Positions 151 through 47,949 of a stretch of DNA of 63,275 nt are shown here, one piece after another. A model generated the notes under the pieces. The model had not been told where the DNA came from, did not search any database, and saw only the letters and a list, made by a program, of their open reading frames with translations. The position numbers and the translations under genes are program-made. Within the stretch, counting starts at the first letter, position 1; every line of letters starts with the position of its first letter. Source of the DNA: a virus (lineage: Duplodnaviria; Caudoviricetes); IMG/VR virus record IMGVR_UViG_3300027861_000023, positions 1 to 63,275 of that record, one strand, 5' to 3'.

Positions 151-1101
151 GATTTAGTATTTCCTGATGATGAAGGTTTTGACCTATATAGAAGCGACAT
201 CAACTATGATACATTAACGGATAACGAGGTTGTTCTTGATGAGAATGAAGCTGCGTATATGGAAAAACTTATTCAAAAAAGAATAGCTTTAAGTAAAATG
301 CCAGACGTTGGAAGTTCAAATGCAGATGGGCGAGTAGAAATATTAAAATCTATTGCCAATGACAGCACTCTTACGGACAAAGAAAAAAAGGCTATATATA
401 GAAGATATAGATATATAGATGACCTTCATCATGATTATTTAGGTGATTTTAATAATTCTCCATATCAGATAAAAGCTAGAGAAATTTTAAAGTCTAATAT
501 GACTATACCTGAAATGGATAAAGCATTAAAAGATGCTGTTGATACATTAGATAGAAAAGAAAAAAAAAAAATCCCGCTAACAAAACCAGTGGATGATAGT
601 ATAGCTGTTTTAGAAAATTATGAAGGCTTTATAAACGGAAGTCCTACTGCTGATATTTTTACTAAATTAATTAAAGATAAAACATATTTTCTAGGAGCTA
701 AAGGAACAGGTAATTGGACTATGAAAGATGAAAAAAATGTGCAAACAAGTGTAGATAGTATCGATTGTTCTGGAGCAATATGTACTATTAGAAATGCACA
801 AGGAGGTAAATACGATCTTAATTACACTAATGCCAAAAAGTTTGTGGAGTTAGCGAAACAAAGAAATATTCCGATAGAATCAGCTAAAGATGGTAACCTA
901 ATACTTATGAATGTTGATGGGGATGGTATTGATCATATTGGTTTTATTGTTGTTGACGAAAATGGAAAAAAATACATAGCAGAGTCTTCTAGTTCGTATG
1001 GAGGAACAACAATAACGGAATTTGATAAGAGAATTGCAGACCTTACAAAAAGAAAACCAGAATTTAGTTACGAAATTGTATCAGATACCAAACAAAAATA
1101 A
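1..1101 (+). CDS. C-terminal part (5'-partial) of a virion ejection/cargo protein ending in an NlpC/P60-like cysteine peptidase (peptidoglycan hydrolase)
   Basis: Frame 1 is open from base 1 (DVVTE repeats) to TAA at 1099-1101, so the track's Met at 259 is internal. It has DSIDCSG (catalytic Cys) and DHIGFIV (His) motifs. Same protein sequence as the end of the ORF running off the window at 63275. Confidence 0.75.
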   Translation, partial: DVVTEDVVTEDVVTEDVVTEDVVTEDVVTEDVVTEDVVAEDVVAEDVVAEDLVFPDDEGFDLYRSDINYDTLTDNEVVLDENEAAYMEKLIQKRIALSKMPDVGSSNADGRVEILKSIANDSTLTDKEKKAIYRRYRYIDDLHHDYLGDFNNSPYQIKAREILKSNMTIPEMDKALKDAVDTLDRKEKKKIPLTKPVDDSIAVLENYEGFINGSPTADIFTKLIKDKTYFLGAKGTGNWTMKDEKNVQTSVDSIDCSGAICTIRNAQGGKYDLNYTNAKKFVELAKQRNIPIESAKDGNLILMNVDGDGIDHIGFIVVDENGKKYIAESSSSYGGTTITEFDKRIADLTKRKPEFSYEIVSDTKQK

Positions 1102-4100
1102 TGGATAAAGTAGAAAAGTTATACCAGTTATATTTAAAAGAAGGAATGATTTCTGAAGCAATTTCTTTAGAAAGATTTAGAAATATTACTCCAGATCAAC
1201 AAGCTTCTATATTGGAGGTATCAAGAAAAAGAAAATTAATTTCTCCAGAAACATCTTTAGAGTCTTTTCAAAGTATCTGGGGAAATACAATGCCTCAAGA
1301 ACAGCAAGTTATTAAAGCTCCTGAAGTTGTAGAGAATAATTCATTTTCTGGTAATTCTGACATTCAAGCAAGTTCTGGTGCTTTTCCAAAAGTAGATAAA
1401 GAGGCTATGAATTCTGATTTAATTAAAGAAGAAACCTCTGAAACTGTTACAGAAGGTGTTGAGTATGATGCAAGAGAAGATGAAAGCAGTGTGTTTAGGG
1501 AGAACATTATTATTGATAAAAACGCAACTCCTTTAGAGCGATCTTTAGCTTTTGTAAATGATGATTTGTTTAAAAGAGACGAAGGGCCTGTTGTTGAATT
1601 GTTAGACTATCATTTTCCATTTGAAGAGTATGGTTTCAAATTTGAGGAAAGTGGGATTTTGGATAATGTTACAGTAACTGCTCCCGATGGAGTTACTAAA
1701 GAAACATTTGGTATTGATTCTGGAGGAAAATTATTTTCATCATTTCAAGACAACTCTGAAGAGTCTAGAAAACTTAGAGACTTTATAAGAAATAATGCTG
1801 ATCAAGAGAAAAGAGACGAAGAAATTACTAAAAAGTATTTTTCGGTAGAGGCGATGAATTTTGACATAGATTTTTTTACAAAACAAAACAAACAGCTTAC
1901 AAAAAATGCTACTGATTATTTTGAAAGAAAAAAAATAAATGAAGCTGAACTAACAAGAATGAGAAACTCTCCAGGCACATTTACTCAACAAGAGTATGAT
2001 CTGCAAATTATGGAGAAAAATTATCTTAGAAATCAAGAGAATGTATTAAAAGATCAATACGAACAGTTCCAGGAAACAGCAGGTCAGTTAGACTTAACTA
2101 CTGGTAACTATGTCTTAATGAAAGAGAAGCAAGGTGAAGTAGTCACTACTGCTATTGGTGGCGCATACAACAAGTTTTTAGAGGGTACAAGCAGTATAAT
2201 ATCTACAGGTATTGGATCAGGACTAGATATATATTACGAGGCAGCACAAGCAGCGTATGGCAATGATTATGGTTATACTGAAGAGGAGTATAGAGATGAA
2301 TTTATAAGGGTTTACGAAGGGTATAAAGGATTAGAAGTTCCAGAATCAGCAAAAGAATCTAAAGAAGGGTTTGAGAAATGGACAGCAACCTTAAAAGATA
2401 GCGATGTTGATAGGGTTAAAGCTTCAGCTACTACAGCATCTAAAAGAGATGGTGTCAGAATAAACTATGATGCAGAAGGTCAGGTTATTGGTGAGTCAAC
2501 TCACAAAATGAGAGCAGAAACCGATGGCAATGGAAATTGGTTTGCATTTCCTACATTATTTCAAAACGAAGATGGAAGTTGGGATGACACATATGAGAAG
2601 CAGATTGAAAAATCTGAAAGAAATTGGAAGGGCGCTTATGAAGAGGCTAAAAAAAGAGGTGAGCTTGTAAGTTTTGGATCGGATGAAGAGGCGGCACTTG
2701 CGTATGCAGATGGTTCTTGGAAAGAAAATTACGGTGCAAAACAAACAGCTACATTGGCCTCAGCACAACCTACAGGAGACTTAGAAGGTAATATGTTTAC
2801 TGGTCAATATAAGGTTGTAAAAAACGATCCTAGATTACAAAACCTTAATTTTGATCAATACGACATAGCAAAAGGTGTAAAAATTCCTTTTGAATCAACT
2901 AGTATGATTGGCCAACCATTACTTCAATGGAATAGTCCTGAAGTGTGGAGTAAAGAGGAAGATGATTGGGTAAAAGCTCCAGGATCTTTTGGGGAGTCTA
3001 ATGTTTTTGATCAGGTTGATGCTTTAGTTGGAGACCAGAAAATAAAGGGTAAAAAAAATGCTGTAAAAGAAATCTCAAGAAACCTTCTTGTTGAAACTAT
3101 TGGCGCAGACAACGTAAGTAATCAAAGAATTGAGGCTCAGATGAATCAAGGTGGAGCAGCAGGTATTTTTGCAACTGGATATTACGGAGCATTTGAATCT
3201 GTACCAGCTTTATTACCAATGATTTATGGTGCAGTTAAAAATAGAAAATTAGTAAAACCTAAAGGGCCAGCAGGTAAAAGTTTAAAAGCTATTAAAGGTA
3301 GATTAATTCAATCTTTAAAAAACTATGCTACTGATGGATATCGCCAGACTTCTTTATTAGCCATGGCAGCTCTTCATTCAGACAAACTAAATGAGCAAAT
3401 GGAAAATAACCCTGAGTTTGAGTGGGTTACTGAAAATGAAAAAAAAGCTCTTATTCTACCATTAGCTACCACTTCAGCTATCTTAGAAACTTTAGGGTTT
3501 AGAATGCTTTTAAAGGGTACTTCTGGTACAAAAATATTAACTGGCATTACTACTGCTGCTTTAAGGCAATTGCCAAAAGGAGCAACTCCTGCAATGTTTA
3601 GAAGAGCAGTAGTTAATATAATGGACAATCAGTTTACAAGAAGAGTTGGTAAAACTGGTGTTGCTAAATTTATTAACAGAGCAACTCCTGGTGTGTTAGC
3701 AGAGGCTGAAACAGGTTTTTTTCAAGAATACACCGATATTGAAGGGAAAAACATATATAATGCTTTTAAAGGTAAGGAACTATTTAAAAATCCTGAAAGA
3801 TGGTCTGAAGAGTACTGGACTCAAATAGGTAAAGCCGCAGGAGCAGAGGCTGTGGGTGGTTTTGTTTTGGGAGCGCCAAGTTCTATAACCGCAGCATTTA
3901 CCTCTAAACAAAAAATTACTGAGGTTAATGAAGAGATGATTACGTTGTTTGACAAAATTTTTGTAAACAAGAATAATAGTCAAGATGATGCGGCTACAGC
4001 AATAAAAGCTTATGAGGCTAGTGTTCAGCAGAAAATGGATGAAGGTCTTATAAGCAGATCTCAAGGCGCAGATATGCTTAATGACTTTAGAACTTTACAG

Positions 4101-7100
4101 GCTGCGGCTACAGATGCAAATATAGCTACAGATTTAAATGAAAAACAAAAAGCTAAAGCCATAGAGTTGTTTTTCCAAAAAAGACAGCTAGAGGTTAAAA
4201 TGTCTCAAACAAACAAAAACCTTCCAGAGTATCAAGAACAACAAGAAATGCTTGAGCAAATTGAGTACAGCATTTCTTTGCTAGGAAAAAACCAGGCAGA
4301 TCAACAGTCTCAAAGAGAGATAGAGGAGCAAGGGATTGAAACCTATGTTGAGGTTACAGAAGAAGAGGTAATGGAGGCTTTAAAACAGGATGGCATTGAA
4401 GCTCCAACTGAGCAACAAAAGATAGATAAATCAGACGAACTAAAAAAAACAAAACAAAATGGCTTACAAGAGCAAAGCACAGAGGGAGTGGTTCAGGAAG
4501 AATCTGCCGAAGGTGGCGGAGAGGTGGGACAAACTGTACCCAGTAACGAGCAATCTACCAACGAGAGTACAGAAGAAACCGAAACCAATATTGAAGAGAC
4601 AGCCGAAGAGGAAGTAAGTCCTGAAGAAAAAATAGACTACAAACAGCAAGAAGTTGAAGAAAGAAAAAACCTTTCAGCGCTTCAGCAAAAAGGTAGAGAT
4701 TTAAAAATATTAGGAAAAAAACTAAGCAAAATATACGGAAATTTAATAACTGGTAAAACACAAGGTGATTTACAGGATAAATATGAGGCTGCTTCTGTTT
4801 TAAAAGAGAATGACAAAAAAATAAGCGAAAACGAAAAAGCTATAGATAACTCTAAAAGAAATATTCAAAAAATTAAAGCTGAAGCTAAAGAAAAAGCTAA
4901 AGCAGATAAAAAAGCTAAAAGAAAAAAAATAGAGGTTAAACCTGAAAAGGGGTTATCTGTAACTAAAAAGATTGAACAAAGATTAAAGACTATTTCAAAC
5001 CTTATAGGTCAAAAGAAAATATTAAATAGATTAAAAATATTTGAAAAATCTCCTCTTCCTCAAAATTATTTTAATCTTGGAAAAACAGAGGTAGAGCTGG
5101 TAGATGGTACTACTGTGAAAGTAAAAGATATAATGGATATGTCTTTTAAAGAATTTACAAACTTTGTAGATGGTTTAAATAAATCAAAACCTAAAGTAGA
5201 AGAAAATTATGAGAAATCATTAAAAGGATTGTCTTTAAAAGCATTAAAAGGTCTTAAAAATAGTGTTATTTCTAGTATAAATAAAGGTGAAAAAGAAGTT
5301 AGAGAGTTAGGTAAGAAATTTCTACCTAATTATAAGGGTAAATTAACTAAACAAGATAATGATAATTATACTGCTGCTTCAAATAAAATATTTAATTTAA
5401 AAAATAAACTTGATTTAATTAATAAGGCTATTAGTAAAATAGAATCAGAGCCTAAAGCAGAGCCTAAAGCAGAGCCTAAAGTAGAGCCTAAAGCAGAACC
5501 TAAAGTAGAGCCTAAAGTAGAAGAAGAAGTTGCTGAAGATGAAGAGGTAGATCAGCAGACAAAAGATGACCTTGACGAGTTTTTTGAAGGGCAATCTACA
5601 GAGCAAACAAAGTCTGAGCCTTCAATTAGTTTAAACCGATCTAAGGGTGAATTAAGATTATCTAAAACAGATCCAGTTAAAATAATCAAGGCTGTAAAAA
5701 AAGCTGCCAAAGCAATGATTAAAACTTTTCCTAGTGTAAAGTTTGTTTTGCATGATTCAACAGAGCTGTTTAGTAAAGCTACAAAAGGAAGAAGAGGTAG
5801 AGGTTATTTTGATCCAACTACAAAAACCATACACATAAACATGGAGACTGCTTCTGTGATTAGTGTTGGTCACGAGGTAACTCATGCTATTGCAAACCAT
5901 CTCATATCTACAGATGCAAAGGCAGAGGTTGTTTTTGATAAAGTTTTATCTAGTTTACAAAGAATATTAAAAGGTACAAATCCTGAGTTATTAGAAAAAG
6001 TAGAGAAATTTTCGAAAAGGTATTCAGACAAAACATTAAGAAGTGAAGAGGCGGCATCTGAATTGATGGGTATCTTATCTGAAAACTGGAGTAAACTAAG
6101 TAGACCAAAAAAGAACAAGATTATTGATCTTTTAGATCGTTTCTTCAAAAAGTTACGTATACCATCTCCTTTTAAAAACAACCTAAATAAAACTGATGAG
6201 GCTGTACTTGAATTTTTCAACACTGTTTCTAAAAAAATAAGAGAGGGAGAGTCAATAGCTATTGAGGATGTCAGTATTTTATCGGAGTTAGCCACTGAAG
6301 TTGAAGCCGAAGGAACTAACCCTATAGGTAATCCTACCGAAATAAACCCACCAAGAGCAGGGAGAGAAAGTAAAATTGACTTCAAAGATTCCTATGATAT
6401 GTCTTTGGTTACTCCTAAAAATAAAATAAACTTATCATCTTTAATAGAAAATATAATTAGTAATGATCAGAAAGTTTGGTTTTGGGTAGCTGATCAATTA
6501 GGTTTAGGAGATGGCATGGATGCAGGCCCTAGCTTTGCTTTGCAGCCTGAAAACATAAAGAAAAAAGCAATATGGGCTAGTGGGTTAGATAATAAAAAAT
6601 TAGAGAGAAACATTAGTGCAGCTGATTTTATATTTATTATTAGTGGCTCTCCAGAAACTAGTAAACTATTCAACAAAAAAGTATTTGATAAGTATACTGA
6701 TATCTTGGGTGATTATAACTCGTTTAAAAAGAAAGCATTAGAAACTAATCCTGTTAAGGCTATTAGAGAAACTTTACAAGAGTTTGATAGCTGGGCCGCA
6801 ATGAGAAAAAGTCCAAAAAGAAAAACTTTTTTAATAGCGGTAAATGTGCAATCGACAAAGCCTAACACTAAATTTCATAAATTAGTAAACACATTAGGAG
6901 GTTTTGTAGACCTTCAGTCTTTAAGAGATGGTTTTTACAGAGAAAATAATTTTGTTCAAAATGATATAATGTTGGTTTTAAAACCAACAGGTATAGGTGA
7001 AAAATCTAACCACTCTACATATTCTACAGATATATTAGGAGAGGTAGTAGGTGTTCCTGATATTAAATTAAATGCAGAGGAGATAATGCCTCAAGAAATT

Positions 7101-10100
7101 AAAGATAAAATAAAAGGTAAAAATGTCGCTGAAAAAACTTCAAGTATAGCTCCTTATGGTGGAGCAGTAGGAACTGCGGTAAAGAATATAACCAAACCTT
7201 CTAGAAAAGGTAGAGAGCAACTTCCAACACTTCAAGAAGTAGAAAGTAGAATAACTAACCGAGCAAGATTCATGAAGGTAGTTGAAGACTATGGCATGAA
7301 AAAAGAAGGGTACATGAGTTATAAATCAGATCTTGGGCCACTACAAAGAGCAGTTAGAGAATATGGCTTTAGAATAGAGACCAGGTATATAACTGAAGGA
7401 AAACGAAGAGGTACGCCAACTGGATACTTTCTTACTACAGGTAGAAATGCTGAAGGATTTCCTGTAATGTATAACCCTAAATTAAGAGAGTTAAAAACAT
7501 TAGAAGATCAAAAACCTAAAAGAAAAGGTAGAGAGCAAATGCTTGACAAAGAAAGTGAAGCAATTAAAATTGTAATGCTGGGTAGAGAAGAGGGTGGATT
7601 TACTGATTCAGAAATAAAATACTACTTAAAAAAGAGAGGCTTTAATGCTAAAGATATAAAAATAGCATTAGCTATTGATCCTGAATTGTTTCCTTCATTT
7701 CCAAAAAGCTTTGGTAATGTAATTGGTGGATTTAAGAATGGAGTAAAGTTATTGGCTAAAATAAATAAATTCCATAAAAAAGTAATAGAAGACAATAACA
7801 ACAAAAAGAAATATAAGCAGGAAAGTCTTAATAAATTAGTAAACAAGACTATTGAGTATATGTATACTACACCTGAATATAAAGCTTTAGGAGTAAAAGG
7901 TAGTAGAATGACATCTAAACAACAGGCTTTAGAGGTTGATTTGTTAGATTACTTATCTCCAGGAATTAAAACTTTTAATGGAGCAAGAGTTCGCGCTTTA
8001 AATAAGCAGATTAGAAACACTAAATTTAGTGAGAAAAATTTAAAAAGAATTCAAAGATCTTTAAGGTTGTACATAAGAACTGTAATGCCTAGAAATTTAT
8101 TAGGTAAAGCTGCCTATATAAAATTAATAGACAAAATAAATGCAGTAGACGAAACTAATTATGATGCTGTTGTTGCTGAAATTACCGATATAGCTACAGA
8201 ATTGGCTAATAAAAACCTAAATAAATCTATACTAGATATTTTAAATGAAACCTTTACAGAAATTCAATCAGGCAGGCTTAAAGGTGTTAAGGTAAGTCAA
8301 GAGGTTAAAGATAGAATATATAAAATAGCTCAAAACACTATAGGTTATGTTCCAGGGAAGAAGGGAAGTCAAGGAAAAATTCCAAATAAAGACACTGCTA
8401 AAAACTGGGACATTACTAATGAAGATATGGTTGCGCACTCAGAAATGTTAAGGCAAAAAATTAGAAGTCTTGAAACTGAAACCGTAATAATAAATGGAGA
8501 AAAGGTACTTGTCAACAAAAATTTTACAACTAAAGAGGCACGAGAAATTTCAGATTTAGCTGTAGCGCTTCAGTACAGCGAAGCTTTAGTTAGCTTTGCA
8601 AATAACGATCCTTTACAGACAAATGCACTTGAGCAGGTTTTATTTAACTTACAACAACTGCAAGAGTTTGGTATTTCTGGATTACAACTACAACTTTTAA
8701 GAAACGCAACAGCGTACATGAACAACGCCATAAATATATTGCAAGATATGGGCGTTATTATTAATCCTTTAAAAGAACTTGAAGCTGAAGGAAAAGAGAA
8801 TATTACTCAAGACGATGTTCTTAAAAAGTTTAAAGAGTTAAAAGAAAAAATACGAATTGATGCTGAAAGAGGAAGGGTTAAAAAGGTTGGTGTAAGGAAA
8901 AGATTAAGCTTACAGGTTAGTCAAATTGCTAAGTATGTTAATACAAAACTAGGTACAGCAGAAGATTTAACTGGTCTAATGGATAGAATTTCATTGTCTA
9001 CTGGAGATTTATTTGGTGGTATAACACAAGAGATTGTTACTAAAGAAGTTAGAAAAGCAAGCAGAATTTTTAAGGGAAGGATGCTTAAACATGAGTTAGA
9101 ATTTGGTATAAAAATGACTGAATTGTTTGGTAAAAAGTGGCTGAAAAAGAACAGACAAAACAACAGGCAGACAGATCAAATTATTATAAGTGAAGCAAAG
9201 CAAATTGTATTAGAAAATGAAAGAGACAGAATCTTAAAAGATAAAAAAATGTCTTCTGGAGAACAGCAAGTTTTGATTCAAGCAATTGATAAGGAGATCA
9301 ATAGTAATGTAAAAATGATATCTCAAAACGAGTTGCTGTATTTTAGAAATCAGGGGTTAGATCCATCTTTAAATGCTTCTTTTGAAGCTACTTTCAAGCC
9401 TACACCATTAACTGGTGACCTGGCTTATTTAAATAAAGAGTTTGACAACAAAAATGAATACACATCTAGGATACAAGAAGAAATAACCAAAAAAATAGAT
9501 CCTAAATTAATTGAGTTAGGAGACTGGATGGTAAGAGATTTTTATCCAAAACAATACGAGCATTATAATAACACTTATAAGGAAATATATAGAACTGATA
9601 TGCCTTGGAATCAAAATTATGCTGGTAGACTATATAGAGCATCAGAAACCGACATTGTAGGTTTAGATTTACTAGATATGCAAGGTAATCAAACCTGGAT
9701 TTCAAATGCTAATGCAGCGAGTACAAAATCTAGACAAGAGAGTAATAGTGCTATTATGCAGACAAATGCTGTAGATGCATTGTTAAATTATACTCGTGAC
9801 ATGGAATATTTTGCTGCCTACGCTATTCCAGTTAGAAATATTAATAAAATGTTTTCAGACAAAGCGGTAAAATCTGTTATTTCTGAAAAATTTGGAAAAG
9901 ATATAAATAGGTACATAAACGATCAAATTACAAAAATTGCAAACAAGGGTGCAAAACATCAAAAGGATGCTGGTTTAATTAATTTCTTCAATAATACTTT
10001 TTTATTATCTCGACTAGGTTTAAACCCAACATTAGTATTAAAGCAAATGACATCTTTCGTTACTTATGGTAATGATATTGGATACAATAACTGGTTAGCT

Positions 10101-11336
10101 CAAGCTGGAAAAACTGGATGGAGTGGAATATCAAGTGATATGAGAGAAATAATGGATAACTCTGTTGTTTTACAAGACAGATATGGCGCTCCTATTACTA
10201 GGGTTTTAGAAACTTATCAAGATGAAGGCTTTAAAAAGTTAGATGGACAGAACGATGCGATTAACAAGTATTTTAATAAGGAAAATCAAAACACTTTAGT
10301 AAAAGCTTTAATGGCATTCACTATGGCTGGTGATAAGGGTGCTATTATGCTGGGTGGTATGCCTAACTACAGATACTACAAAGAGCAGTTTAAAAAACAA
10401 AACCCTAATGCCACTAATCAAGAGGCTATTGACTATGCTATTGTAAAATTTGAGGCTGACACATTAAGAACTCAGCAGTCCTACGACCTACAAGACAAAG
10501 ATTACTGGCAAACGAGTAATGCTTTTGCTAGAGCATTTAATATGTTCTTAACCACACCAAAACAGTATTTAAGAAGAGAGATTATAGCTGCTAGAAATTT
10601 TAGCAGGATTGTTCGTAGTGGTGGTAAACAAGGTAAGGGTACTGTTTGGCAAAACGCAAGAACTTTATTTGTGTATCACTCAATAATGCCAATGTTTTTT
10701 CAGTATGTAAGTATGGGACTTCCAGGATTATTTAGAGACAGAAGGGATGAAGACCTTCAGGAGTTGGGTATTGCAGCTTTGTTAGGAAACATAAATGCTC
10801 TGTTTATTATAGGAGATTTAGTTGAGATGTCTGTAGATCAAGCTACTGGTAAACCATGGGGTTCACAAGCTCCAAGTATACCTGTTTTTGAACAAGCTGC
10901 AAGGCTTAATGTTTTAAAAGACAGAGCTGACAAGACTAAAAATCCAATTAAAAAAGCTGAGTATGAAATGAAATACTACTTAGAACTTAGCACTATGGTA
11001 GGAATTCCAGCGCCACAGTTAGTGAGAATGGGGAAAAATTTTACAGAATTGGCTACAGGCGATGTAGATGGATTTGGAGATGCGTTAATGAAAGCATTTA
11101 ACTTCTCAGAATTTGCTCAAGAAGGAAGGAAGGTTAGAGAGGCTAAACCTAAACCAGCAACAATGACTATGGCAGAAATGAAAAAATATCTTCCTGAAGA
11201 GTATGCAGAAATTATGCGAGAGAAAGAAGAGTATGAGTATGAGAACGCAGACGAGATTGAAGAACTGGAATTAGAAAAAGATGAGGCACGAAGAGAGTAT
11301 GATGAGGCAATGCGAGAAATGTACTTAGATAATTAG
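1101..11336 (+). CDS. Giant (3411 aa) virion cargo/ejection protein, large polyvalent-protein type with a zincin-like metallopeptidase domain
   Basis: Last gene of the structural arm. GYFDPTTKTIHIN...GHEVTH (HExxH at 5871-5885) is followed by EEAASE. It has acidic/Lys-rich linkers and a helical C-terminal region typical of podovirus internal proteins. Confidence 0.75.
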   Translation: MDKVEKLYQLYLKEGMISEAISLERFRNITPDQQASILEVSRKRKLISPETSLESFQSIWGNTMPQEQQVIKAPEVVENNSFSGNSDIQASSGAFPKVDKEAMNSDLIKEETSETVTEGVEYDAREDESSVFRENIIIDKNATPLERSLAFVNDDLFKRDEGPVVELLDYHFPFEEYGFKFEESGILDNVTVTAPDGVTKETFGIDSGGKLFSSFQDNSEESRKLRDFIRNNADQEKRDEEITKKYFSVEAMNFDIDFFTKQNKQLTKNATDYFERKKINEAELTRMRNSPGTFTQQEYDLQIMEKNYLRNQENVLKDQYEQFQETAGQLDLTTGNYVLMKEKQGEVVTTAIGGAYNKFLEGTSSIISTGIGSGLDIYYEAAQAAYGNDYGYTEEEYRDEFIRVYEGYKGLEVPESAKESKEGFEKWTATLKDSDVDRVKASATTASKRDGVRINYDAEGQVIGESTHKMRAETDGNGNWFAFPTLFQNEDGSWDDTYEKQIEKSERNWKGAYEEAKKRGELVSFGSDEEAALAYADGSWKENYGAKQTATLASAQPTGDLEGNMFTGQYKVVKNDPRLQNLNFDQYDIAKGVKIPFESTSMIGQPLLQWNSPEVWSKEEDDWVKAPGSFGESNVFDQVDALVGDQKIKGKKNAVKEISRNLLVETIGADNVSNQRIEAQMNQGGAAGIFATGYYGAFESVPALLPMIYGAVKNRKLVKPKGPAGKSLKAIKGRLIQSLKNYATDGYRQTSLLAMAALHSDKLNEQMENNPEFEWVTENEKKALILPLATTSAILETLGFRMLLKGTSGTKILTGITTAALRQLPKGATPAMFRRAVVNIMDNQFTRRVGKTGVAKFINRATPGVLAEAETGFFQEYTDIEGKNIYNAFKGKELFKNPERWSEEYWTQIGKAAGAEAVGGFVLGAPSSITAAFTSKQKITEVNEEMITLFDKIFVNKNNSQDDAATAIKAYEASVQQKMDEGLISRSQGADMLNDFRTLQAAATDANIATDLNEKQKAKAIELFFQKRQLEVKMSQTNKNLPEYQEQQEMLEQIEYSISLLGKNQADQQSQREIEEQGIETYVEVTEEEVMEALKQDGIEAPTEQQKIDKSDELKKTKQNGLQEQSTEGVVQEESAEGGGEVGQTVPSNEQSTNESTEETETNIEETAEEEVSPEEKIDYKQQEVEERKNLSALQQKGRDLKILGKKLSKIYGNLITGKTQGDLQDKYEAASVLKENDKKISENEKAIDNSKRNIQKIKAEAKEKAKADKKAKRKKIEVKPEKGLSVTKKIEQRLKTISNLIGQKKILNRLKIFEKSPLPQNYFNLGKTEVELVDGTTVKVKDIMDMSFKEFTNFVDGLNKSKPKVEENYEKSLKGLSLKALKGLKNSVISSINKGEKEVRELGKKFLPNYKGKLTKQDNDNYTAASNKIFNLKNKLDLINKAISKIESEPKAEPKAEPKVEPKAEPKVEPKVEEEVAEDEEVDQQTKDDLDEFFEGQSTEQTKSEPSISLNRSKGELRLSKTDPVKIIKAVKKAAKAMIKTFPSVKFVLHDSTELFSKATKGRRGRGYFDPTTKTIHINMETASVISVGHEVTHAIANHLISTDAKAEVVFDKVLSSLQRILKGTNPELLEKVEKFSKRYSDKTLRSEEAASELMGILSENWSKLSRPKKNKIIDLLDRFFKKLRIPSPFKNNLNKTDEAVLEFFNTVSKKIREGESIAIEDVSILSELATEVEAEGTNPIGNPTEINPPRAGRESKIDFKDSYDMSLVTPKNKINLSSLIENIISNDQKVWFWVADQLGLGDGMDAGPSFALQPENIKKKAIWASGLDNKKLERNISAADFIFIISGSPETSKLFNKKVFDKYTDILGDYNSFKKKALETNPVKAIRETLQEFDSWAAMRKSPKRKTFLIAVNVQSTKPNTKFHKLVNTLGGFVDLQSLRDGFYRENNFVQNDIMLVLKPTGIGEKSNHSTYSTDILGEVVGVPDIKLNAEEIMPQEIKDKIKGKNVAEKTSSIAPYGGAVGTAVKNITKPSRKGREQLPTLQEVESRITNRARFMKVVEDYGMKKEGYMSYKSDLGPLQRAVREYGFRIETRYITEGKRRGTPTGYFLTTGRNAEGFPVMYNPKLRELKTLEDQKPKRKGREQMLDKESEAIKIVMLGREEGGFTDSEIKYYLKKRGFNAKDIKIALAIDPELFPSFPKSFGNVIGGFKNGVKLLAKINKFHKKVIEDNNNKKKYKQESLNKLVNKTIEYMYTTPEYKALGVKGSRMTSKQQALEVDLLDYLSPGIKTFNGARVRALNKQIRNTKFSEKNLKRIQRSLRLYIRTVMPRNLLGKAAYIKLIDKINAVDETNYDAVVAEITDIATELANKNLNKSILDILNETFTEIQSGRLKGVKVSQEVKDRIYKIAQNTIGYVPGKKGSQGKIPNKDTAKNWDITNEDMVAHSEMLRQKIRSLETETVIINGEKVLVNKNFTTKEAREISDLAVALQYSEALVSFANNDPLQTNALEQVLFNLQQLQEFGISGLQLQLLRNATAYMNNAINILQDMGVIINPLKELEAEGKENITQDDVLKKFKELKEKIRIDAERGRVKKVGVRKRLSLQVSQIAKYVNTKLGTAEDLTGLMDRISLSTGDLFGGITQEIVTKEVRKASRIFKGRMLKHELEFGIKMTELFGKKWLKKNRQNNRQTDQIIISEAKQIVLENERDRILKDKKMSSGEQQVLIQAIDKEINSNVKMISQNELLYFRNQGLDPSLNASFEATFKPTPLTGDLAYLNKEFDNKNEYTSRIQEEITKKIDPKLIELGDWMVRDFYPKQYEHYNNTYKEIYRTDMPWNQNYAGRLYRASETDIVGLDLLDMQGNQTWISNANAASTKSRQESNSAIMQTNAVDALLNYTRDMEYFAAYAIPVRNINKMFSDKAVKSVISEKFGKDINRYINDQITKIANKGAKHQKDAGLINFFNNTFLLSRLGLNPTLVLKQMTSFVTYGNDIGYNNWLAQAGKTGWSGISSDMREIMDNSVVLQDRYGAPITRVLETYQDEGFKKLDGQNDAINKYFNKENQNTLVKALMAFTMAGDKGAIMLGGMPNYRYYKEQFKKQNPNATNQEAIDYAIVKFEADTLRTQQSYDLQDKDYWQTSNAFARAFNMFLTTPKQYLRREIIAARNFSRIVRSGGKQGKGTVWQNARTLFVYHSIMPMFFQYVSMGLPGLFRDRRDEDLQELGIAALLGNINALFIIGDLVEMSVDQATGKPWGSQAPSIPVFEQAARLNVLKDRADKTKNPIKKAEYEMKYYLELSTMVGIPAPQLVRMGKNFTELATGDVDGFGDALMKAFNFSEFAQEGRKVREAKPKPATMTMAEMKKYLPEEYAEIMREKEEYEYENADEIEELELEKDEARREYDEAMREMYLDN
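4459..4617 (+). CDS. Nested 52-aa basic protein in the +1 frame of the giant gene (MAYKSKAQREWFRKNLPKVAERWDKLYPVTSNLPTRVQKKPKPILKRQPKRK)
   Basis: ATG 4459 follows the A-rich leader AAAAAAACAAAACAAA; TAA at 4615-4617. Resembles, from memory, small phage proteins of pattern MPFKSKAQRRW..N.P..A.RW. Local GC and codon usage shift in the host frame. Confidence 0.65.
   Translation: MAYKSKAQREWFRKNLPKVAERWDKLYPVTSNLPTRVQKKPKPILKRQPKRK
5448..5522 (+). repeat. 12-bp coding tandem repeat (EPKA/EPKV x6), linker in the giant protein
   Basis: GAGCCTAAAG(C/T)A units read directly. Confidence 0.95.
7203..7538 (+). repeat. 18-bp direct repeat AGAAAAGGTAGAGAGCAA (RKGREQ) at 7203-7220 and 7521-7538
   Basis: Identical in-frame copies 318 bp apart. 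A degenerate third copy (RAGRES) lies near 6354. Confidence 0.9.
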
Positions 11337-26473: not shown

Positions 26474-28060
26474 ATGAGCAATTATATTCCAAAGAACCTT
26501 GAGTTCGATCAAGAAGGTCGTAATAAATTAATCAAGGGTATCACAACAATTTCAAAAGCGGTAAAGAGTACACTTGGCCCTCGTGGCAAAACCTCTATAA
26601 TAGAGTCAACCGATCATGTTGGTGGTATGACTATTACAAAGGATGGTGTAACAGTTGCTAACTCTATATTCCTGGAGGATCCAGTAGAGAACCTTGCGGT
26701 TCAGATGTTAAAAGATGCTGCTCGAAGAACAGCTAATTCTGCTGGGGATGGAACGACAACTGCAATTGTATTGACTGAGGCTATTATAAAAGCAGGCGAA
26801 GAGTTTTTAACTCCTAAACATAATATAACTGAGGTTGTAAAAGATATAAATCGTTTAAGTATTCAGATTGTTGACAGTCTTTTACATAAGTCTAAAGAGG
26901 TAACACCATCCAGGCTTCTGGATGTTGCTACTATTTCGGCTAATAACGATCATGACCTGGGGAAGATTATAGCAGATGCTTACGATCAGGTTGGTAAGAA
27001 TGGTATTGTAACAGTTGAGAGGTCACAAAACCATATGACTTTTGCTACTGTAACAAATGGTATAAAGATAGATCGTGGATACACATCAAACCTGTTTATC
27101 ACAAACCAAAAAAATGATGAGGCCGTACTAGAAGATGTTCTTGTATTGGTATGTGACCAGGAGATAAGTAACATCCTTCAGATAGAGAATGTGCTGAGGC
27201 CAGTTATTCAACAAAACAAAAAACTATTGATTATTGGGCCAGTATCAACCAATGTTGTTCAAACATTAGCGTTAAATGTTGTGCAAAATGGATTGAAATT
27301 GTGTAATATTATGCCACCACAGTTTGGATACAAGCAACATGAGCTGATGCAAGACATTGCAATGTCGGTTGGTGCTAAATACTTTTCGGAAAAAACAGGA
27401 GACGATCTTAGTTTGATCACATTTAATGATTTAGGTCATGCGGATAAGGTTATATCTGGTAAAAGTCAGACAGTTATTATCAAAGATAGCCAGATGACAG
27501 AAGATATCGAGAAGAGAATAGAGGATCTAAAAGAACAACAAAGCAACACCGAGATAGTGTCAGACAGGGAGTTTATAGATGAGCGAATCGCTAGTTTATC
27601 TGGATCTATTGGAGCTATTTATGTTGGAGGTAACTCTGATGTGGAGCAAAAAGAGAAGTATGATAGGATTGAAGATGCGGTATGTGCAGTTAGATCAGCA
27701 CTTGAAGAAGGTATTGTCGCTGGAGGTGGAACAACACTATATAAAGTTGCAACTTACATAGAAGATAAGAACAATGGGGTTGCTGGAAAAATACTCGCGA
27801 GTGCGCTTCGCGCACCTTTGTTGCAAATTTATGCAAATGCTGGGTTAGATCTATCAAAATCAAAAAAGGAAAAGCTTATGTATGATTCTGGTTATGAGGG
27901 ATTAAATATAAAAACTGAAGAGTGGGGAGATATGTATAAAATGGGTGTTATTGATCCTTTAAAAGTTACTAAGTCCGCTTTTTTAAATGCAGTAAGTGTT
28001 GCAACAACAATACTTACAACTAATGTAATAATTACTCACGCAAGAGCTAAAGAAGCCTGA
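26474..28060 (+). CDS. groEL: Chaperonin GroEL (phage-encoded, no GGM tail)
   Basis: TLGPRG, ITKDGVTVA, AGDGTTTA, GIVAGGG and GVIDP motifs. Confidence 0.97.
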   Translation: MSNYIPKNLEFDQEGRNKLIKGITTISKAVKSTLGPRGKTSIIESTDHVGGMTITKDGVTVANSIFLEDPVENLAVQMLKDAARRTANSAGDGTTTAIVLTEAIIKAGEEFLTPKHNITEVVKDINRLSIQIVDSLLHKSKEVTPSRLLDVATISANNDHDLGKIIADAYDQVGKNGIVTVERSQNHMTFATVTNGIKIDRGYTSNLFITNQKNDEAVLEDVLVLVCDQEISNILQIENVLRPVIQQNKKLLIIGPVSTNVVQTLALNVVQNGLKLCNIMPPQFGYKQHELMQDIAMSVGAKYFSEKTGDDLSLITFNDLGHADKVISGKSQTVIIKDSQMTEDIEKRIEDLKEQQSNTEIVSDREFIDERIASLSGSIGAIYVGGNSDVEQKEKYDRIEDAVCAVRSALEEGIVAGGGTTLYKVATYIEDKNNGVAGKILASALRAPLLQIYANAGLDLSKSKKEKLMYDSGYEGLNIKTEEWGDMYKMGVIDPLKVTKSAFLNAVSVATTILTTNVIITHARAKEA

Positions 28061-46803: not shown

Positions 46804-47949
46804 ATGAGTTTTGAAGTAAAATCAGTTGACGTAAATGTCGAAGAAAAATCAAGAGCGCAAGTTGAAGAGACTCTTTTAAAAAAACACGAAGAGCAATTTG
46901 AAAATACAGCAGATAAACCTGTTGATGATGGAATTGATCGTGTAAATTTTAGTAGTCAGGAAACCCAAAAAATAAAAGTAGAAGATACCCCTGTTGAAGA
47001 AACAGAGGTAAAATTAGAAGAAAATGACGTTCTTTTATATATTAAGAATAGATATGACAAGGATATAAATTCTGTTGATGAATTATTTGCGGAAAAAGAG
47101 GCAAATAAAGATTTACCAGAAGACGTATCTAAGTATTTAAAGTATAAGCAGGATACTGGTCGTGGCATTAATGACTTCATAAAGTTACAAGAAGACATTG
47201 ATGAAATGGAGGATAATGCTATACTTACTAGCTATTATGAATCTACCGAAGAAGGGTTGGATCATCAAGATATCCAGGACATTATCGATGATAAATTTTT
47301 ATATGATGAAGATTTAGATGATGAAAAAGATATTAGAAAAGCAAAATTAGCTAAAAAACGAGAGCTTGTAAAAGCTAAATCTTTTTTGAATGAGCAAAAA
47401 GATAAGTATAAAGTTCCTCTTGAGTCAAGTGGGGATGGATTATCTAAAGATCAACAAGAAAGTTATAATGCTTACAAGAAATCAGTCGAGGACTCTAAAA
47501 GTGTTGCGGAGCAAAACAAAAAGAAGTATGAATATTTTTTAAATAAAACCGAGTCGGTTTTTAACAATGATTTCAAAGGTTTTGAATTTTCAGTTGGTGA
47601 TAAAAATATTTCTTTTAAACCAGGAGATGCACAAGAATTAAAAAATCGTCAAGCAGATGTCAATAATTTTATTGGCCAATTTATGGGAGATGATGGTTTA
47701 ATATCCGATGCTGAGGGATATCATAAAGCACTAGCGGTGGCTATGAATCCTGATAAGTTTGCTAAACATTTTTACGAACAAGGTGTGGCTGCAACTATAG
47801 ATAATGTTTCTAGAAAATCTAAGAACATAAATATGGATGTAAGACAGCAATCACAATCAGTTTCTAAAAATGGAATAACAATTAGACCTGTTAGCAGAAG
47901 TAACGATAATGGAAAGGGACTCAAAATTAGAAGTATTAAAAAACAATAA
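46804..47949 (+). CDS. Capsid scaffolding protein (putative)
   Basis: Acidic helical ORF between portal and major capsid protein. Confidence 0.7.
   Translation: MSFEVKSVDVNVEEKSRAQVEETLLKKHEEQFENTADKPVDDGIDRVNFSSQETQKIKVEDTPVEETEVKLEENDVLLYIKNRYDKDINSVDELFAEKEANKDLPEDVSKYLKYKQDTGRGINDFIKLQEDIDEMEDNAILTSYYESTEEGLDHQDIQDIIDDKFLYDEDLDDEKDIRKAKLAKKRELVKAKSFLNEQKDKYKVPLESSGDGLSKDQQESYNAYKKSVEDSKSVAEQNKKKYEYFLNKTESVFNNDFKGFEFSVGDKNISFKPGDAQELKNRQADVNNFIGQFMGDDGLISDAEGYHKALAVAMNPDKFAKHFYEQGVAATIDNVSRKSKNINMDVRQQSQSVSKNGITIRPVSRSNDNGKGLKIRSIKKQ

What the first reader, a model, noticed from the sequence alone, without database searches (positions are those of the whole stretch)
4459..4617. Hidden basic gene nested in the +1 frame of the 3411-aa virion cargo gene
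Seen: inside the acidic linker of the giant ORF (NGLQEQSTEGVVQEESAEGG...), the +1 frame reads MAYKSKAQREWFRKNLPKVAERWDKLYPVTSNLPTRVQKKPKPILKRQPKRK*. It follows an A-rich leader like those of real genes here. The host frame switches to codons otherwise rare in this gene (GCC, GGC, GTG, CCC, ACC), as expected under dual coding. Recalled, not searched: stand-alone small phage proteins with the pattern MPFKS..QR.W...N.P..A.RW exist. The linker motif N/DAIQEQST that I recall in giant phage proteins is exactly the shifted reading of MPFKSKAQ. Inference: a conserved, unannotated overlapping pair in which a very basic peptide is encoded within the acidic segment. The peptide could be a partner or chaperone of that segment, or a DNA-condensing virion peptide.
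Basis: partly seen in the sequence, partly recalled or inferred. Interest (0 to 1): 0.8.

Follow-up and report, generated by a model that had tools for sequence, protein, structure and literature searches.

The report
Conserved small gene nested in giant gene
A 52-residue basic protein gene really is hidden in a shifted reading frame inside a giant phage virion gene, and the same small gene recurs, nested or free-standing, in many uncultured phages.

Summary
ORF 4459-4617 (+1 frame of the 3411-aa ORF 1101-11336) is not remarkable by length (resampling P=0.53). Comparative data show it is a real gene.

- **Family:** it belongs to a large unnamed family with an MPFKSKAQ-type N-terminal module. 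I found 2168 small and 878 longer protein clusters, all "hypothetical".
- **Unbiased sample:** giant-gene homologs were collected without reference to the peptide. Of 60 with a complete 5' end, 36 carry the gene nested, always in the +1 frame and with ATG at family position 1. In 10 it starts 1-10 nt after the giant gene's stop. 14 lack it.
- **Selection:** variation peaks at the peptide's third codon position.
- **Initiation signals:** nested ATGs carry host-appropriate signals. These are A at -3/-6/-12/-13 in low-GC phages and Shine-Dalgarno motifs in higher-GC ones.
- **Host frame:** the host-frame reading is kept acidic against codon-usage expectation in 24 of 24 lineages.
- **Other hosts:** the gene also overlaps two other genes, a scaffold-position gene and a ~130-aa protein.

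Function is untested. I infer a small nucleic-acid-binding, head-assembly or virion-associated protein.

The parts
4459..4617 (+). Nested gene: 52-aa basic protein (net charge about +14). It has a conserved N-terminal ~40-aa module followed by a K/R-rich tail, and its stop codon is included in the range.
   Evidence: for the ORF. Family membership. AlphaFold2 model with pLDDT 82.8 and helices at 6-15 and 17-26. Purifying selection in this frame in relatives.
4434..4458 (+). A-rich translation-initiation leader of the nested gene, lying inside the host coding sequence. It has A at -3, -6, -12 and -13.
   Evidence: 72% A, the most A-rich of 213 ATG contexts in the giant gene; all four A positions present in 17 of 24 nested lineages against 1.7% of 4829 other internal ATGs. 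These positions are positive determinants in Flavobacterium johnsoniae (PMC6847099, passages read).
1101..11336 (+). Host gene: 3411-aa giant protein, the last gene of the + strand late/structural block. Role inferred as virion or ejected protein.
   Evidence: Homologs in 77 viral contigs. Distant hit to a 'structural protein' of Tenacibaculum phage Gundel_1. No Pfam family.
4458..4619 (+). Dual-coded host segment: host codons 1120-1173, an acidic, variable linker (NGLQEQSTEG...EEEVS). It lies upstream of the conserved domain that carries an HExxH motif.
   Evidence: sequence and codon usage; the segment is absent from the 54%-identical homolog L003; the site lies between conserved blocks of P0002 at about 1150 and 1460-1540; acidity is selected.

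Best explanation
**What it is (shown by comparison).** ORF 4459-4617 is a genuine protein-coding gene lying wholly inside the giant gene, one base out of frame.
- It belongs to a large, unnamed phage family.
- The family is defined by an N-terminal module of about 40 residues: M-P-[FY]-K-S-x-x-Q, then N/x-P-x-x-A-x-x-W, then L-P-x-x-V.
- The module is predicted to be a two-helix hairpin.
- In the short forms a lysine/arginine-rich tail follows it.

**How it is made (inferred from sequence signals).**
- Ribosomes start at its own ATG on the late mRNA of the giant gene.
- In this low-GC, Bacteroidota-type phage they use an A-rich leader without a Shine-Dalgarno motif.
- The giant protein is read straight through the same DNA.

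**Both readings are under selection.** The peptide keeps its amino-acid sequence. Its synonymous sites are used to avoid host-frame stops and to make the host linker acidic rather than basic.

**The gene is positionally fluid.** In relatives it sits in the linker of the giant gene, directly after the giant gene's stop, inside the N-terminal acidic region of the gene between portal and capsid, over the acidic tail of a ~130-aa protein, or free next to portal or terminase genes.

**What it does (least certain, about 0.35).** I infer a small nucleic-acid-binding protein of head assembly or the virion. Its N-terminal module would be a shared 'handle' that ties a variable C-terminal payload to a phage assembly component. 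The payload is a basic tail here. In long relatives it is a pyrophosphatase, NUDIX, lysozyme or ligase-phosphoesterase domain.

The confidence given below is for the gene being real and independently translated.
For: **Relatives found by sequence alone**
- Four small proteins at E 3e-12 to 9e-4 among 1.84 billion representatives.
- 2168 small and 878 longer clusters with the family profile.

**Unbiased sample**
- 77 loci were collected with the giant protein's C-terminal region only. Of these, 41 are nested, 11 are directly downstream and 25 have no copy. Of the 25, 11 are 5'-truncated.
- All 41 nested copies are in the +1 frame, 637-1056 codons into the complete giant ORFs (the 5 copies in 5'-truncated ORFs cannot be placed).
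- ATG stands at family position 1 in 40 of 40 nested copies (the 41st, L111, is cut by its locus start) and in 11 of 11 downstream copies. ORF lengths are 43-61 aa.

**Codon phase (24 nested lineages under 90% nt identity)**
- Diversity at peptide codon positions 1/2/3 is 0.306/0.240/0.440.
- A host-only control region gives 0.193/0.076/0.430 in the host phase.
- So the host's third position is the least variable inside the overlap.
- Pairwise amino-acid identity is 0.596 in the peptide frame against 0.420 in the host frame.

**Open frame**
- The chance that +1 stays open, given each host protein, has a geometric mean of 0.114 per lineage.

**Start signals**
- A at -3, -6, -12 and -13 in 17 of 24 nested lineages, against 1.7% of 4829 other internal ATGs.
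- A Shine-Dalgarno-like motif before 9 of 10 nested ATGs in the higher-GC host group, against 5.9% background.

**Host frame is truly read**
- The -1 frame is open in 17 of 17 nested copies and 0 of 16 free-standing copies (GC 0.40 or less).
- Mean virtual charge is -7.6 against +6.1.
- Observed host charge is below expectation in 24 of 24 lineages (mean -10.3 against +7.6).

**Hints to function**
- Neighbours of free copies are portal, large terminase and scaffold or head-assembly genes.
- The module is at the extreme N-terminus in 109 of the 120 best long relatives.
- In the long relatives scanned, the fused domains include InPase, NUDIX, LigD_N, two lysozyme families, DUF5661 and DUF6321.
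- InPase of this type is predicted to be virion-packaged (PMC5512222, section 23 read).
- The Streptomyces phage FlowerPower homolog has an alanine/lysine-rich tail.
Against: **No direct evidence of translation**
- No ribosome profiling, mass spectrometry or transcript mapping was available.

**The ORF in this window alone is unremarkable**
- Its length is as expected by chance (P=0.53).

**The gene is dispensable in some lineages**
- 14 of 60 giant genes with a complete 5' end have no copy in or next to them.
- Two genomes rated 100% complete have none at E 0.01 or better.
- The 54%-identical homolog L003 lacks the segment.

**The statistics over lineages are not independent**
- The loci share ancestry, so the P values and the product are overstated.
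- Loci of the first set were ascertained by the peptide itself.

**Against a purely structural role**
- 5 of 80 loci place the gene between a primase-like gene and ribonucleotide reductase.
- In the Streptomyces phages it lies between a small 'peptidase' and the holin.

**No annotation support for function**
- No known family, solved structure or annotated fold match supports any function.
Confidence: 0.85

Rival explanations
1. Chance open frame. An acidic, T-poor stretch cannot contain stop codons in any frame, and its +1 reading is automatically lysine/arginine-rich. On this view the ORF is a by-product and is not translated.
For: - The ORF sits at the most T-poor 159 nt of the gene.
- The longest +1 ORF expected by synonymous resampling is 53 +/- 13 aa against 52 observed. 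This stretch is open in 18% of resamples.
Against: - The same protein family exists as free-standing genes and as N-terminal domains.
- The ATG, the frame and the sequence are kept in lineages whose giant proteins are only about 30-45% identical.
- Substitutions follow the peptide's codon phase.
- Initiation signals are specific to the nested ATG.
Confidence: 0.03
2. Real coding frame, but reached by programmed +1 frameshifting from the giant ORF rather than by its own start. The product would be the N-terminal ~1120 residues of the giant protein ending in the basic tail.
For: - The overlap lies in the same +1 relation in all 41 nested copies.
- Internal initiation inside a heavily translated ORF is expected to be inefficient (established knowledge, not tested here).
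Against: - Family position 1 is ATG in 40 of 40 nested copies.
- That position coincides with the true N-terminus of the free-standing proteins and of 109 of the 120 best long relatives.
- Host-appropriate ribosome-binding signals precede it.
- I did not look for a conserved slippery site, and none was noticed in the leaders printed.
Confidence: 0.04
3. The overlap itself is the point. On this view the acidic host segment and the basic peptide are a co-encoded interacting pair. The peptide would be a charge-matched partner, chaperone or neutraliser of the acidic linker. That would explain why the gene recurs inside acidic segments.
For: - The host reading is kept acidic against codon-usage expectation in 24 of 24 lineages.
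- Nested copies use G/C rather than A at the deciding sites.
- The gene overlaps acidic regions of three or four unrelated host genes.
Against: - Many family members are free-standing with no overlapped partner.
- 10 of 60 complete giant genes have the small gene after their stop, with no trace of the module in any frame of the giant ORF.
- Acidity may simply be what these disordered linkers need; the flanks are acidic too.
- No binding test is informative here.
Confidence: 0.12
4. Not a virion or assembly protein. The small protein would be an intracellular regulator or anti-host factor made late, for example a nucleic-acid-binding regulator. Its position near structural genes would only reflect timing.
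For: - Five loci place it between a primase-like gene and ribonucleotide reductase.
- In the Streptomyces phages it lies next to the holin.
- Fused partners such as NUDIX, InPase and ligase phosphoesterase act on nucleotides.
Against: - Most identified neighbours are portal, terminase, scaffold or the giant late gene.
- The fused InPase type is predicted to be packaged (PMC5512222, section 23).
Confidence: 0.25

Closest known systems
Rz1 embedded in Rz (lambda-type spanin genes). Recalled from general knowledge, not looked up here.
   Same: A small gene lies entirely inside a larger phage gene in the +1 frame. It has its own start, and both products are functional.
   Different: - Rz1 is a secreted lipoprotein and works with its host-gene product in lysis. 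This peptide has no cysteine or signal sequence.
- This peptide belongs to a family that is mostly free-standing.
- Its host is a 3411-aa late protein.
- The same gene overlaps several unrelated hosts.
Overprinted genes of small viruses, such as phiX174 E in D and B in A. General literature on overprinting was seen as search listings only (PMC8227390, PMC6195259).
   Same: There is out-of-frame dual coding, compositional skew in the overlapped reading, and disorder in one of the two products.
   Different: In classical overprinting the embedded frame is the newcomer. Here the embedded gene is the older, widely distributed one. The host's overlapped linker is the variable, lineage-specific part.
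Small basic internal head proteins, such as T7 gp6.7, T4 internal proteins with an N-terminal capsid-targeting sequence, and adenovirus core peptides. Recalled; not tested here.
   Same: They are small and basic, are encoded among head genes, and are thought to travel with the DNA. The idea of an N-terminal targeting element attached to a variable payload is shared.
   Different: No sequence or fold similarity was found. Packaging of this peptide is not shown.
Polyvalent proteins and their associated domains (Iyer et al. 2017, PMC5512222; abstract, passages and sections 29, 32 read; section 23 seen only as search passages).
   Same: - Long relatives of the module carry InPase, a domain that the paper assigns to phage proteins predicted to be packaged and injected.
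- The giant host is a large multi-region late protein.
   Different: - The module matches no Pfam family, so none of the LPD families held there.
- The giant host has no recognisable Pfam domain.
- The word 'overlapping' does not occur in that paper.

Membership tests
Unnamed MPFKSKAQ-type small phage protein family (profile built here, alignment A2) | N-terminal M-P-[FY]-K-S-x-x-Q, then P17, A20, W23 and L33-P34 in register | tested here: met
   - in 73 sequences M1, S5, Q8 and P17 are invariant; P2, K4, A20, W23, L33 and P34 are 90% or more conserved.
- The window copy has all of these except P2, which is A here and P in the 98%-identical L002 copy.
Unnamed MPFKSKAQ-type small phage protein family | The module stands at the very N-terminus of the protein, and in short members a basic tail follows | tested here: met
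   - the tail is ...RVQKKPKPILKRQPKRK.
- the module is N-terminal in 109 of the 120 best long relatives.
- ATG at profile position 1 in 51 of 51 copies.
Out-of-frame embedded phage genes (Rz1-in-Rz type arrangement) | Lies wholly within another coding sequence in a different frame, with its own start codon and ribosome-binding signal | tested here: met
Out-of-frame embedded phage genes | Both frames are under selection | tested here: met
   - Peptide frame.
- Host frame: (open in 17 of 17 nested copies against 0 of 16 free copies; kept acidic in 24 of 24 lineages).
Out-of-frame embedded phage genes | Both products are made | not testable with these tools
   No expression or proteome data were examined.
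Rz1-type spanin (o-spanin) | Signal sequence with a lipobox cysteine | tested here: not met
   The 52-aa sequence has no cysteine and no hydrophobic N-terminal stretch.
DUF3008 (PF11450) | Match to the Pfam model | tested here: not met
   - No Pfam hit at E up to 1 for the window peptide or the five other members scanned.
- The only link is a weak language-model lead: score 0.84, with the family on 15% of one cluster.
Polyvalent proteins (for the giant host gene) | Several recognisable domains of disparate activity in one polypeptide | tested here: inconclusive
   - No Pfam or PHROG family at meaningful E.
- There is only an HExxH motif in a conserved block, and a DUF6782 putative metallopeptidase hit at E 0.25.

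The most novel reading that the evidence does not exclude
A portable 'hitch-hiker' gene with reverse overprinting.
- An old, free-standing small gene repeatedly comes to lie out of frame inside acidic disordered segments of unrelated late genes. These are the giant virion protein, the scaffold-position protein and a ~130-aa protein.
- The host's acidic segment is then the shifted reading of the small gene, tuned through the small gene's synonymous sites.
- The charge-opposite pair (peptide about +14, host segment about -16) is functional. The peptide's basic tail and the linker it is written in would bind or neutralise each other during assembly or packaging.
Probability: 0.15. Interest if true: 0.9.

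Novelty: new variant of a known kind. Interest (0 to 1): 0.72.

Why it matters
**For annotation.** Gene callers normally forbid a gene inside a gene, so small nested genes in phages are systematically missed. Here one is backed by unusually clean comparative evidence across dozens of uncultured phage lineages.

**For how overlaps arise.** It reverses the usual story of overprinting. The embedded gene is the ancient one, and the host linker is the lineage-specific reading. Both frames show measurable selection, including selection on the net charge of the host reading through the other gene's silent sites.

**For translation.** The nested start sites switch between A-rich leaders and Shine-Dalgarno motifs according to the likely host. 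This gives a natural set of internal initiation sites for studying translation in Bacteroidota-type systems.

**For phage protein function.** The work defines a large unnamed protein module (thousands of clusters) that heads many phage proteins with effector-like domains. That makes its role directly testable.

Tried and rejected
**Searches that found no function or annotation**
- Pfam and PHROGs on the peptide, family members and long forms gave nothing usable. The only hits were weak ones to phrog_30849 (E 0.12) and phrog_1375 (best E 5e-5), both of unknown function.
- A PDB sequence search with the family profile found nothing (best E 0.47).
- Foldseek against viral models returned only uncharacterised phage proteins (best E 8e-3).
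- The ESM Atlas returned only viral 'hypothetical protein' clusters.

**Searches of cultured and published phages**
- tblastn of the window peptide against GenBank phages found only a non-significant Microvirus hit (E 4).
- Two other family members found only Streptomyces Beephvirinae phages and the marine phage 023Pt_psg01. All of these copies are free-standing and annotated hypothetical.
- I therefore found no cultured phage with the nested arrangement.
- blastn of the region matched only a low-complexity repeat.

**Complex prediction**
- Portal (811 aa) with the peptide gave no verdict (score 0.00). This counts neither for nor against binding.

**Remnants**
- I looked for decayed remnants of the module in the three forward frames of 25 giant ORFs that lack a nested copy. 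None were found.

**Rows dropped**
- Three long repetitive proteins among the seven HMMER hits (P0005, P0007, P0009) were left out of the alignments. I judged them repeat or low-complexity matches.

**Literature**
- The search 'MPFKSKAQ' found 0 papers.
- A six-term search on overlapping or embedded phage genes listed nothing on this family.
- In the polyvalent-protein paper 'overlapping' occurs 0 times.
- These searches do not prove the finding is absent from print.

**Tools and runs**
- A first charge simulation timed out and a second sampler failed. They were replaced by the exact sampler.
- Sequencing-run tools were not used.
Full report
**1. The observation**

The window is a 63,275-base IMG/VR virus record that CheckV rates 100% complete. 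It lies in the +1 frame of the 3411-aa ORF 1101..11336. The phage has a large terminase (42068), a portal (44315), a capsid-like protein (47961) and a GroEL-like gene (26474). The giant gene closes the + strand late block.

Taken alone, the ORF is not significant.
- It sits on the most T-poor 159 nt of the gene: T is 12.6% against 26.8% for the gene, and the minimum is at 4432.
- The open +1 stretch of 57 codons is followed closely by stretches of 52, 45 and 44 codons.
- I resampled the giant gene's synonymous codons. The longest +1 ATG-ORF then averages 53 +/- 13 aa, against 52 observed (P=0.53). This particular stretch stays open in 18% of resamples, or 11% with the ATG.

- Host codon usage over these 54 codons is at the 0.09th percentile of the gene, and GC3 is 0.39 against 0.22.
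- The 25-nt leader is 72% A, more than before any of the other 212 ATGs of the giant gene. Real genes average 52%.

**2. Relatives of the peptide**

*Direct searches.*
- A word-indexed search found one protein: 51 aa, 94% identical, seen on 4 contigs.
- An exhaustive HMMER scan of 1.84 billion representatives found 7 proteins at E 1e-3 or better.
- Four of them are small proteins of 50-61 aa and 45-71% identity.
- They share M-P-[FY]-K-S-x-A-Q ... N-x-P-x-x-A-x-x-W ... L-P-x-x-V and a basic tail.
- The other three are long repeat proteins, which I set aside.

*Family size.*
- With the family profile (A2, 73 sequences) the large collection holds 2168 clusters of 18-172 aa and 878 of 173-2000 aa at E 1e-5 or better.
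- Every name a source gives among the 240 listed rows is 'hypothetical protein', apart from one lysozyme name and bare source identifiers. None of the 120 listed small proteins carries a Pfam family.
- Pfam, PHROGs, PDB sequences, Foldseek against viral models and the ESM Atlas give no annotated match.

*Structure.* AlphaFold2 on A2 predicts helices at 6-15 and 17-26, then an extended tail, with pLDDT 82.8.

**3. Where the family is encoded (first set)**

This set was found with the peptide itself.

| Arrangement | Loci of 80 |
|---|---|
| Inside an open frame of 1155-3187 codons, with the peptide in +1 of the host as in the window | 28 |
| Inside the first quarter of a 416-aa gene between portal and capsid genes | 4 |
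| First 27-40 codons overlap the acidic C-terminal tail of a 121-144-aa ORF, between a primase-like gene and ribonucleotide reductase, same frame relation | 5 |
| N-terminus of a protein of 198-495 aa | 8 |
| 1-10 nt after the stop of a giant ORF | 5 |
| Free-standing or ambiguous | 30 |

- The 416-aa host of the second row is 39% identical (E 1e-65) to the window's ORF 46804-47949.
- Where neighbours of free-standing copies could be named, they are portal, large terminase or head-assembly/scaffold genes.
- In GenBank the family is free-standing and annotated hypothetical. It is gene 48 of Streptomyces phage FlowerPower and six relatives, between a small 'peptidase' and the holin. It is also a 39-aa gene of marine phage 023Pt_psg01.

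**4. An unbiased sample**

The first set was selected on the peptide. I therefore collected homologs of the giant protein using only its conserved C-terminal 1400 residues. This gave 77 loci, some from the same contigs as the first set. I then asked where the family profile hits in six frames.

| Copy of the small gene | All 77 loci | The 60 loci with a complete giant 5' end |
|---|---|---|
| Nested in the giant ORF | 41 | 36 |
| Starts 1-10 nt after its stop | 11 | 10 |
| None | 25 (11 are 5'-truncated) | 14 |

- All 41 nested copies are in the +1 frame, 637-1056 codons from the start of the open frame in the complete giant ORFs.
- Family position 1 is ATG in 40 of 40 nested copies (one more is cut by the locus start) and in 11 of 11 downstream copies. 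ORFs are 43-61 aa.
- Two genomes rated 100% complete, with terminal repeats, have no copy anywhere at E 0.01 or better.
- The giant ORFs without a nested copy show no decayed remnant in any forward frame (25 tested).
- The homolog L003, 54% identical in its best aligned segment of the linker region, simply lacks the segment.

On a FastTree of the giant C-terminus (69 rows), nested, downstream and absent states are interleaved. At least 9 changes are needed. Either the small gene has moved or been lost repeatedly, or the halves of the giant gene recombine.

By BLASTP the giant hosts fall into two groups with no link at E 1e-6. One has 26 members including the window. The other has 10 members with GC 0.38-0.66.

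**5. Selection in both frames**

*Peptide frame.*
- I used 24 nested lineages under 90% nucleotide identity.
- Diversity at peptide codon positions 1/2/3 is 0.306/0.240/0.440.
- The peptide's position 2 is the host's position 3, so the host's 'silent' position is the least variable.
- In a host-only control block the usual pattern holds in the host phase: 0.193/0.076/0.430.
- The first set gives the same result, with pairwise identity 0.596 in the peptide frame against 0.420 in the host frame.
- Given each host protein and its codon usage, the +1 frame would stay open with geometric-mean probability 0.114 per lineage.

*Host frame.*
- The host frame is equally not an accident.
- In free-standing copies (GC 0.40 or less) the corresponding frame carries on average 7.8 stops and is open in 0 of 16. 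In nested copies it is open in 17 of 17.
- I held each peptide sequence fixed and sampled its synonymous codons by host usage, forbidding host-frame stops.
- The host segment should then be basic (mean +7.6). It is acidic in fact (mean -10.3), below expectation in 24 of 24 lineages, each with P 0.003 or less.
- At the deciding sites nested copies use G 49%, C 30%, A 21%, T 0%. Free copies use G 19%, C 8%, A 40%, T 33%.

So the acidity is not a by-product of the code. All these lineages share ancestry, so the P values are upper bounds on significance.

**6. Start signals**

*Higher-GC host group.*
- 9 of 10 nested ATGs have a Shine-Dalgarno-like motif 5-17 nt upstream, inside the host coding sequence.
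- The background is 5.9% of other internal ATGs (sequences).

*Low-GC group.*
- 17 of 24 lineages have A at -3, -6, -12 and -13 together, against 1.7% of 4829 other internal ATGs.
- The window has all four.
- These four positions are the positive determinants of initiation reported for Flavobacterium johnsoniae, whose phylum does not use Shine-Dalgarno pairing (PMC6847099, passages read).

The signal changes with the likely host, while the ATG stays at family position 1. This argues for independent initiation rather than frameshifting.

**7. What it may do**

- The module stands at the extreme N-terminus in 109 of the 120 best long relatives. Most of the other 11 still show a methionine at its start.
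- Ten long relatives were scanned against Pfam. All ten matched a family; in eight the score reached Pfam's own cutoff.
- The families are InPase, DUF5661, DUF6321, NUDIX, LigD_N, Phage_lysozyme and Phage_lysozyme2.
- The InPase type was described in phage 'polyvalent' proteins predicted to be packaged and injected (PMC5512222: abstract, found passages including those on the InPase domain, and sections 29 and 32 read).
- Short members end in lysine/arginine-rich tails. The Streptomyces member has an alanine/lysine-rich tail.

With the portal, terminase, scaffold and giant-gene neighbourhoods, the best-supported guess is a small nucleic-acid-binding protein of head assembly or the virion. Its N-terminal hairpin would be a common attachment element.

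This part is inference only. The ribonucleotide-reductase and holin contexts and the lineages that lack the gene caution against it.

**8. Comparison and novelty**

- The arrangement is of the Rz1-in-Rz kind: a small gene wholly inside another, +1 frame, own start (recalled).
- It differs in that the embedded gene is the old, widespread one, and the host linker is the variable reading.
- The same gene overlaps three or four unrelated hosts.
- Selection on the host's net charge acts through the embedded gene's silent sites.
- Three literature probes found no description of it.

I rate it a new variant of a known kind.

**9. Verdict**

The gene is real with confidence about 0.85. Its function is open.

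Noticed in passing
window 46804-47949 (+); L047 3359-4609 with nested ORF 3525-3668: The window's gene between portal and capsid-like genes has a 39%-identical homolog (E 1e-65) in contigs L047, L048, L063 and L079. That homolog carries the same small gene nested in the +1 frame of its acidic N-terminal region. The window's copy of this gene has no nested ORF.
   Followed up: partly
window about 5447-5545 (giant gene): A PKAEPK-type tandem peptide repeat lies in the giant protein. It gave the only blastn matches to GenBank phages, which I took to be low-complexity similarity (Bacillus, Staphylococcus, Cellulophaga phages).
   Followed up: no
window about 5727-6311 (giant protein residues ~1543-1737): This is the most widely conserved internal block of the giant protein and contains an HExxH motif (..GHEVTHA..). 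Its only family match is a weak one to a putative metallopeptidase family (DUF6782, E 0.25). The nested gene always lies upstream of this block.
   Followed up: partly
window 26474-28060 (+): A phage-encoded GroEL-like chaperonin (phrog_5725, E 5e-132).
   Followed up: no
window 60476-63274 (+, runs off the end) and 1-1101 (+, runs in from the start): Open frames touch both ends of the record, which suggests a circularly permuted or cut genome. The two frames do not join in phase by simple circularisation.
   Followed up: no
L021, L028, L029, L031, L040 (for example L031 5724-6125): A conserved ~125-145-aa protein lies between a primase-like gene and ribonucleotide reductase. Its acidic C-terminal tail is the shifted reading of the first 27-40 codons of the small gene. 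This is a third, partial-overlap host.
   Followed up: partly
L030, L055, L060, L078: Long forms of 352-495 aa carry the module at the N-terminus, followed by glycine/glutamine/asparagine-rich low-complexity sequence. Each starts at or within 2 nt of the end of a ~720-740-aa 'virion structural protein' gene (phrog_3287 matched in the two tested, L030 and L060). The position suggests a scaffold-like protein.
   Followed up: partly
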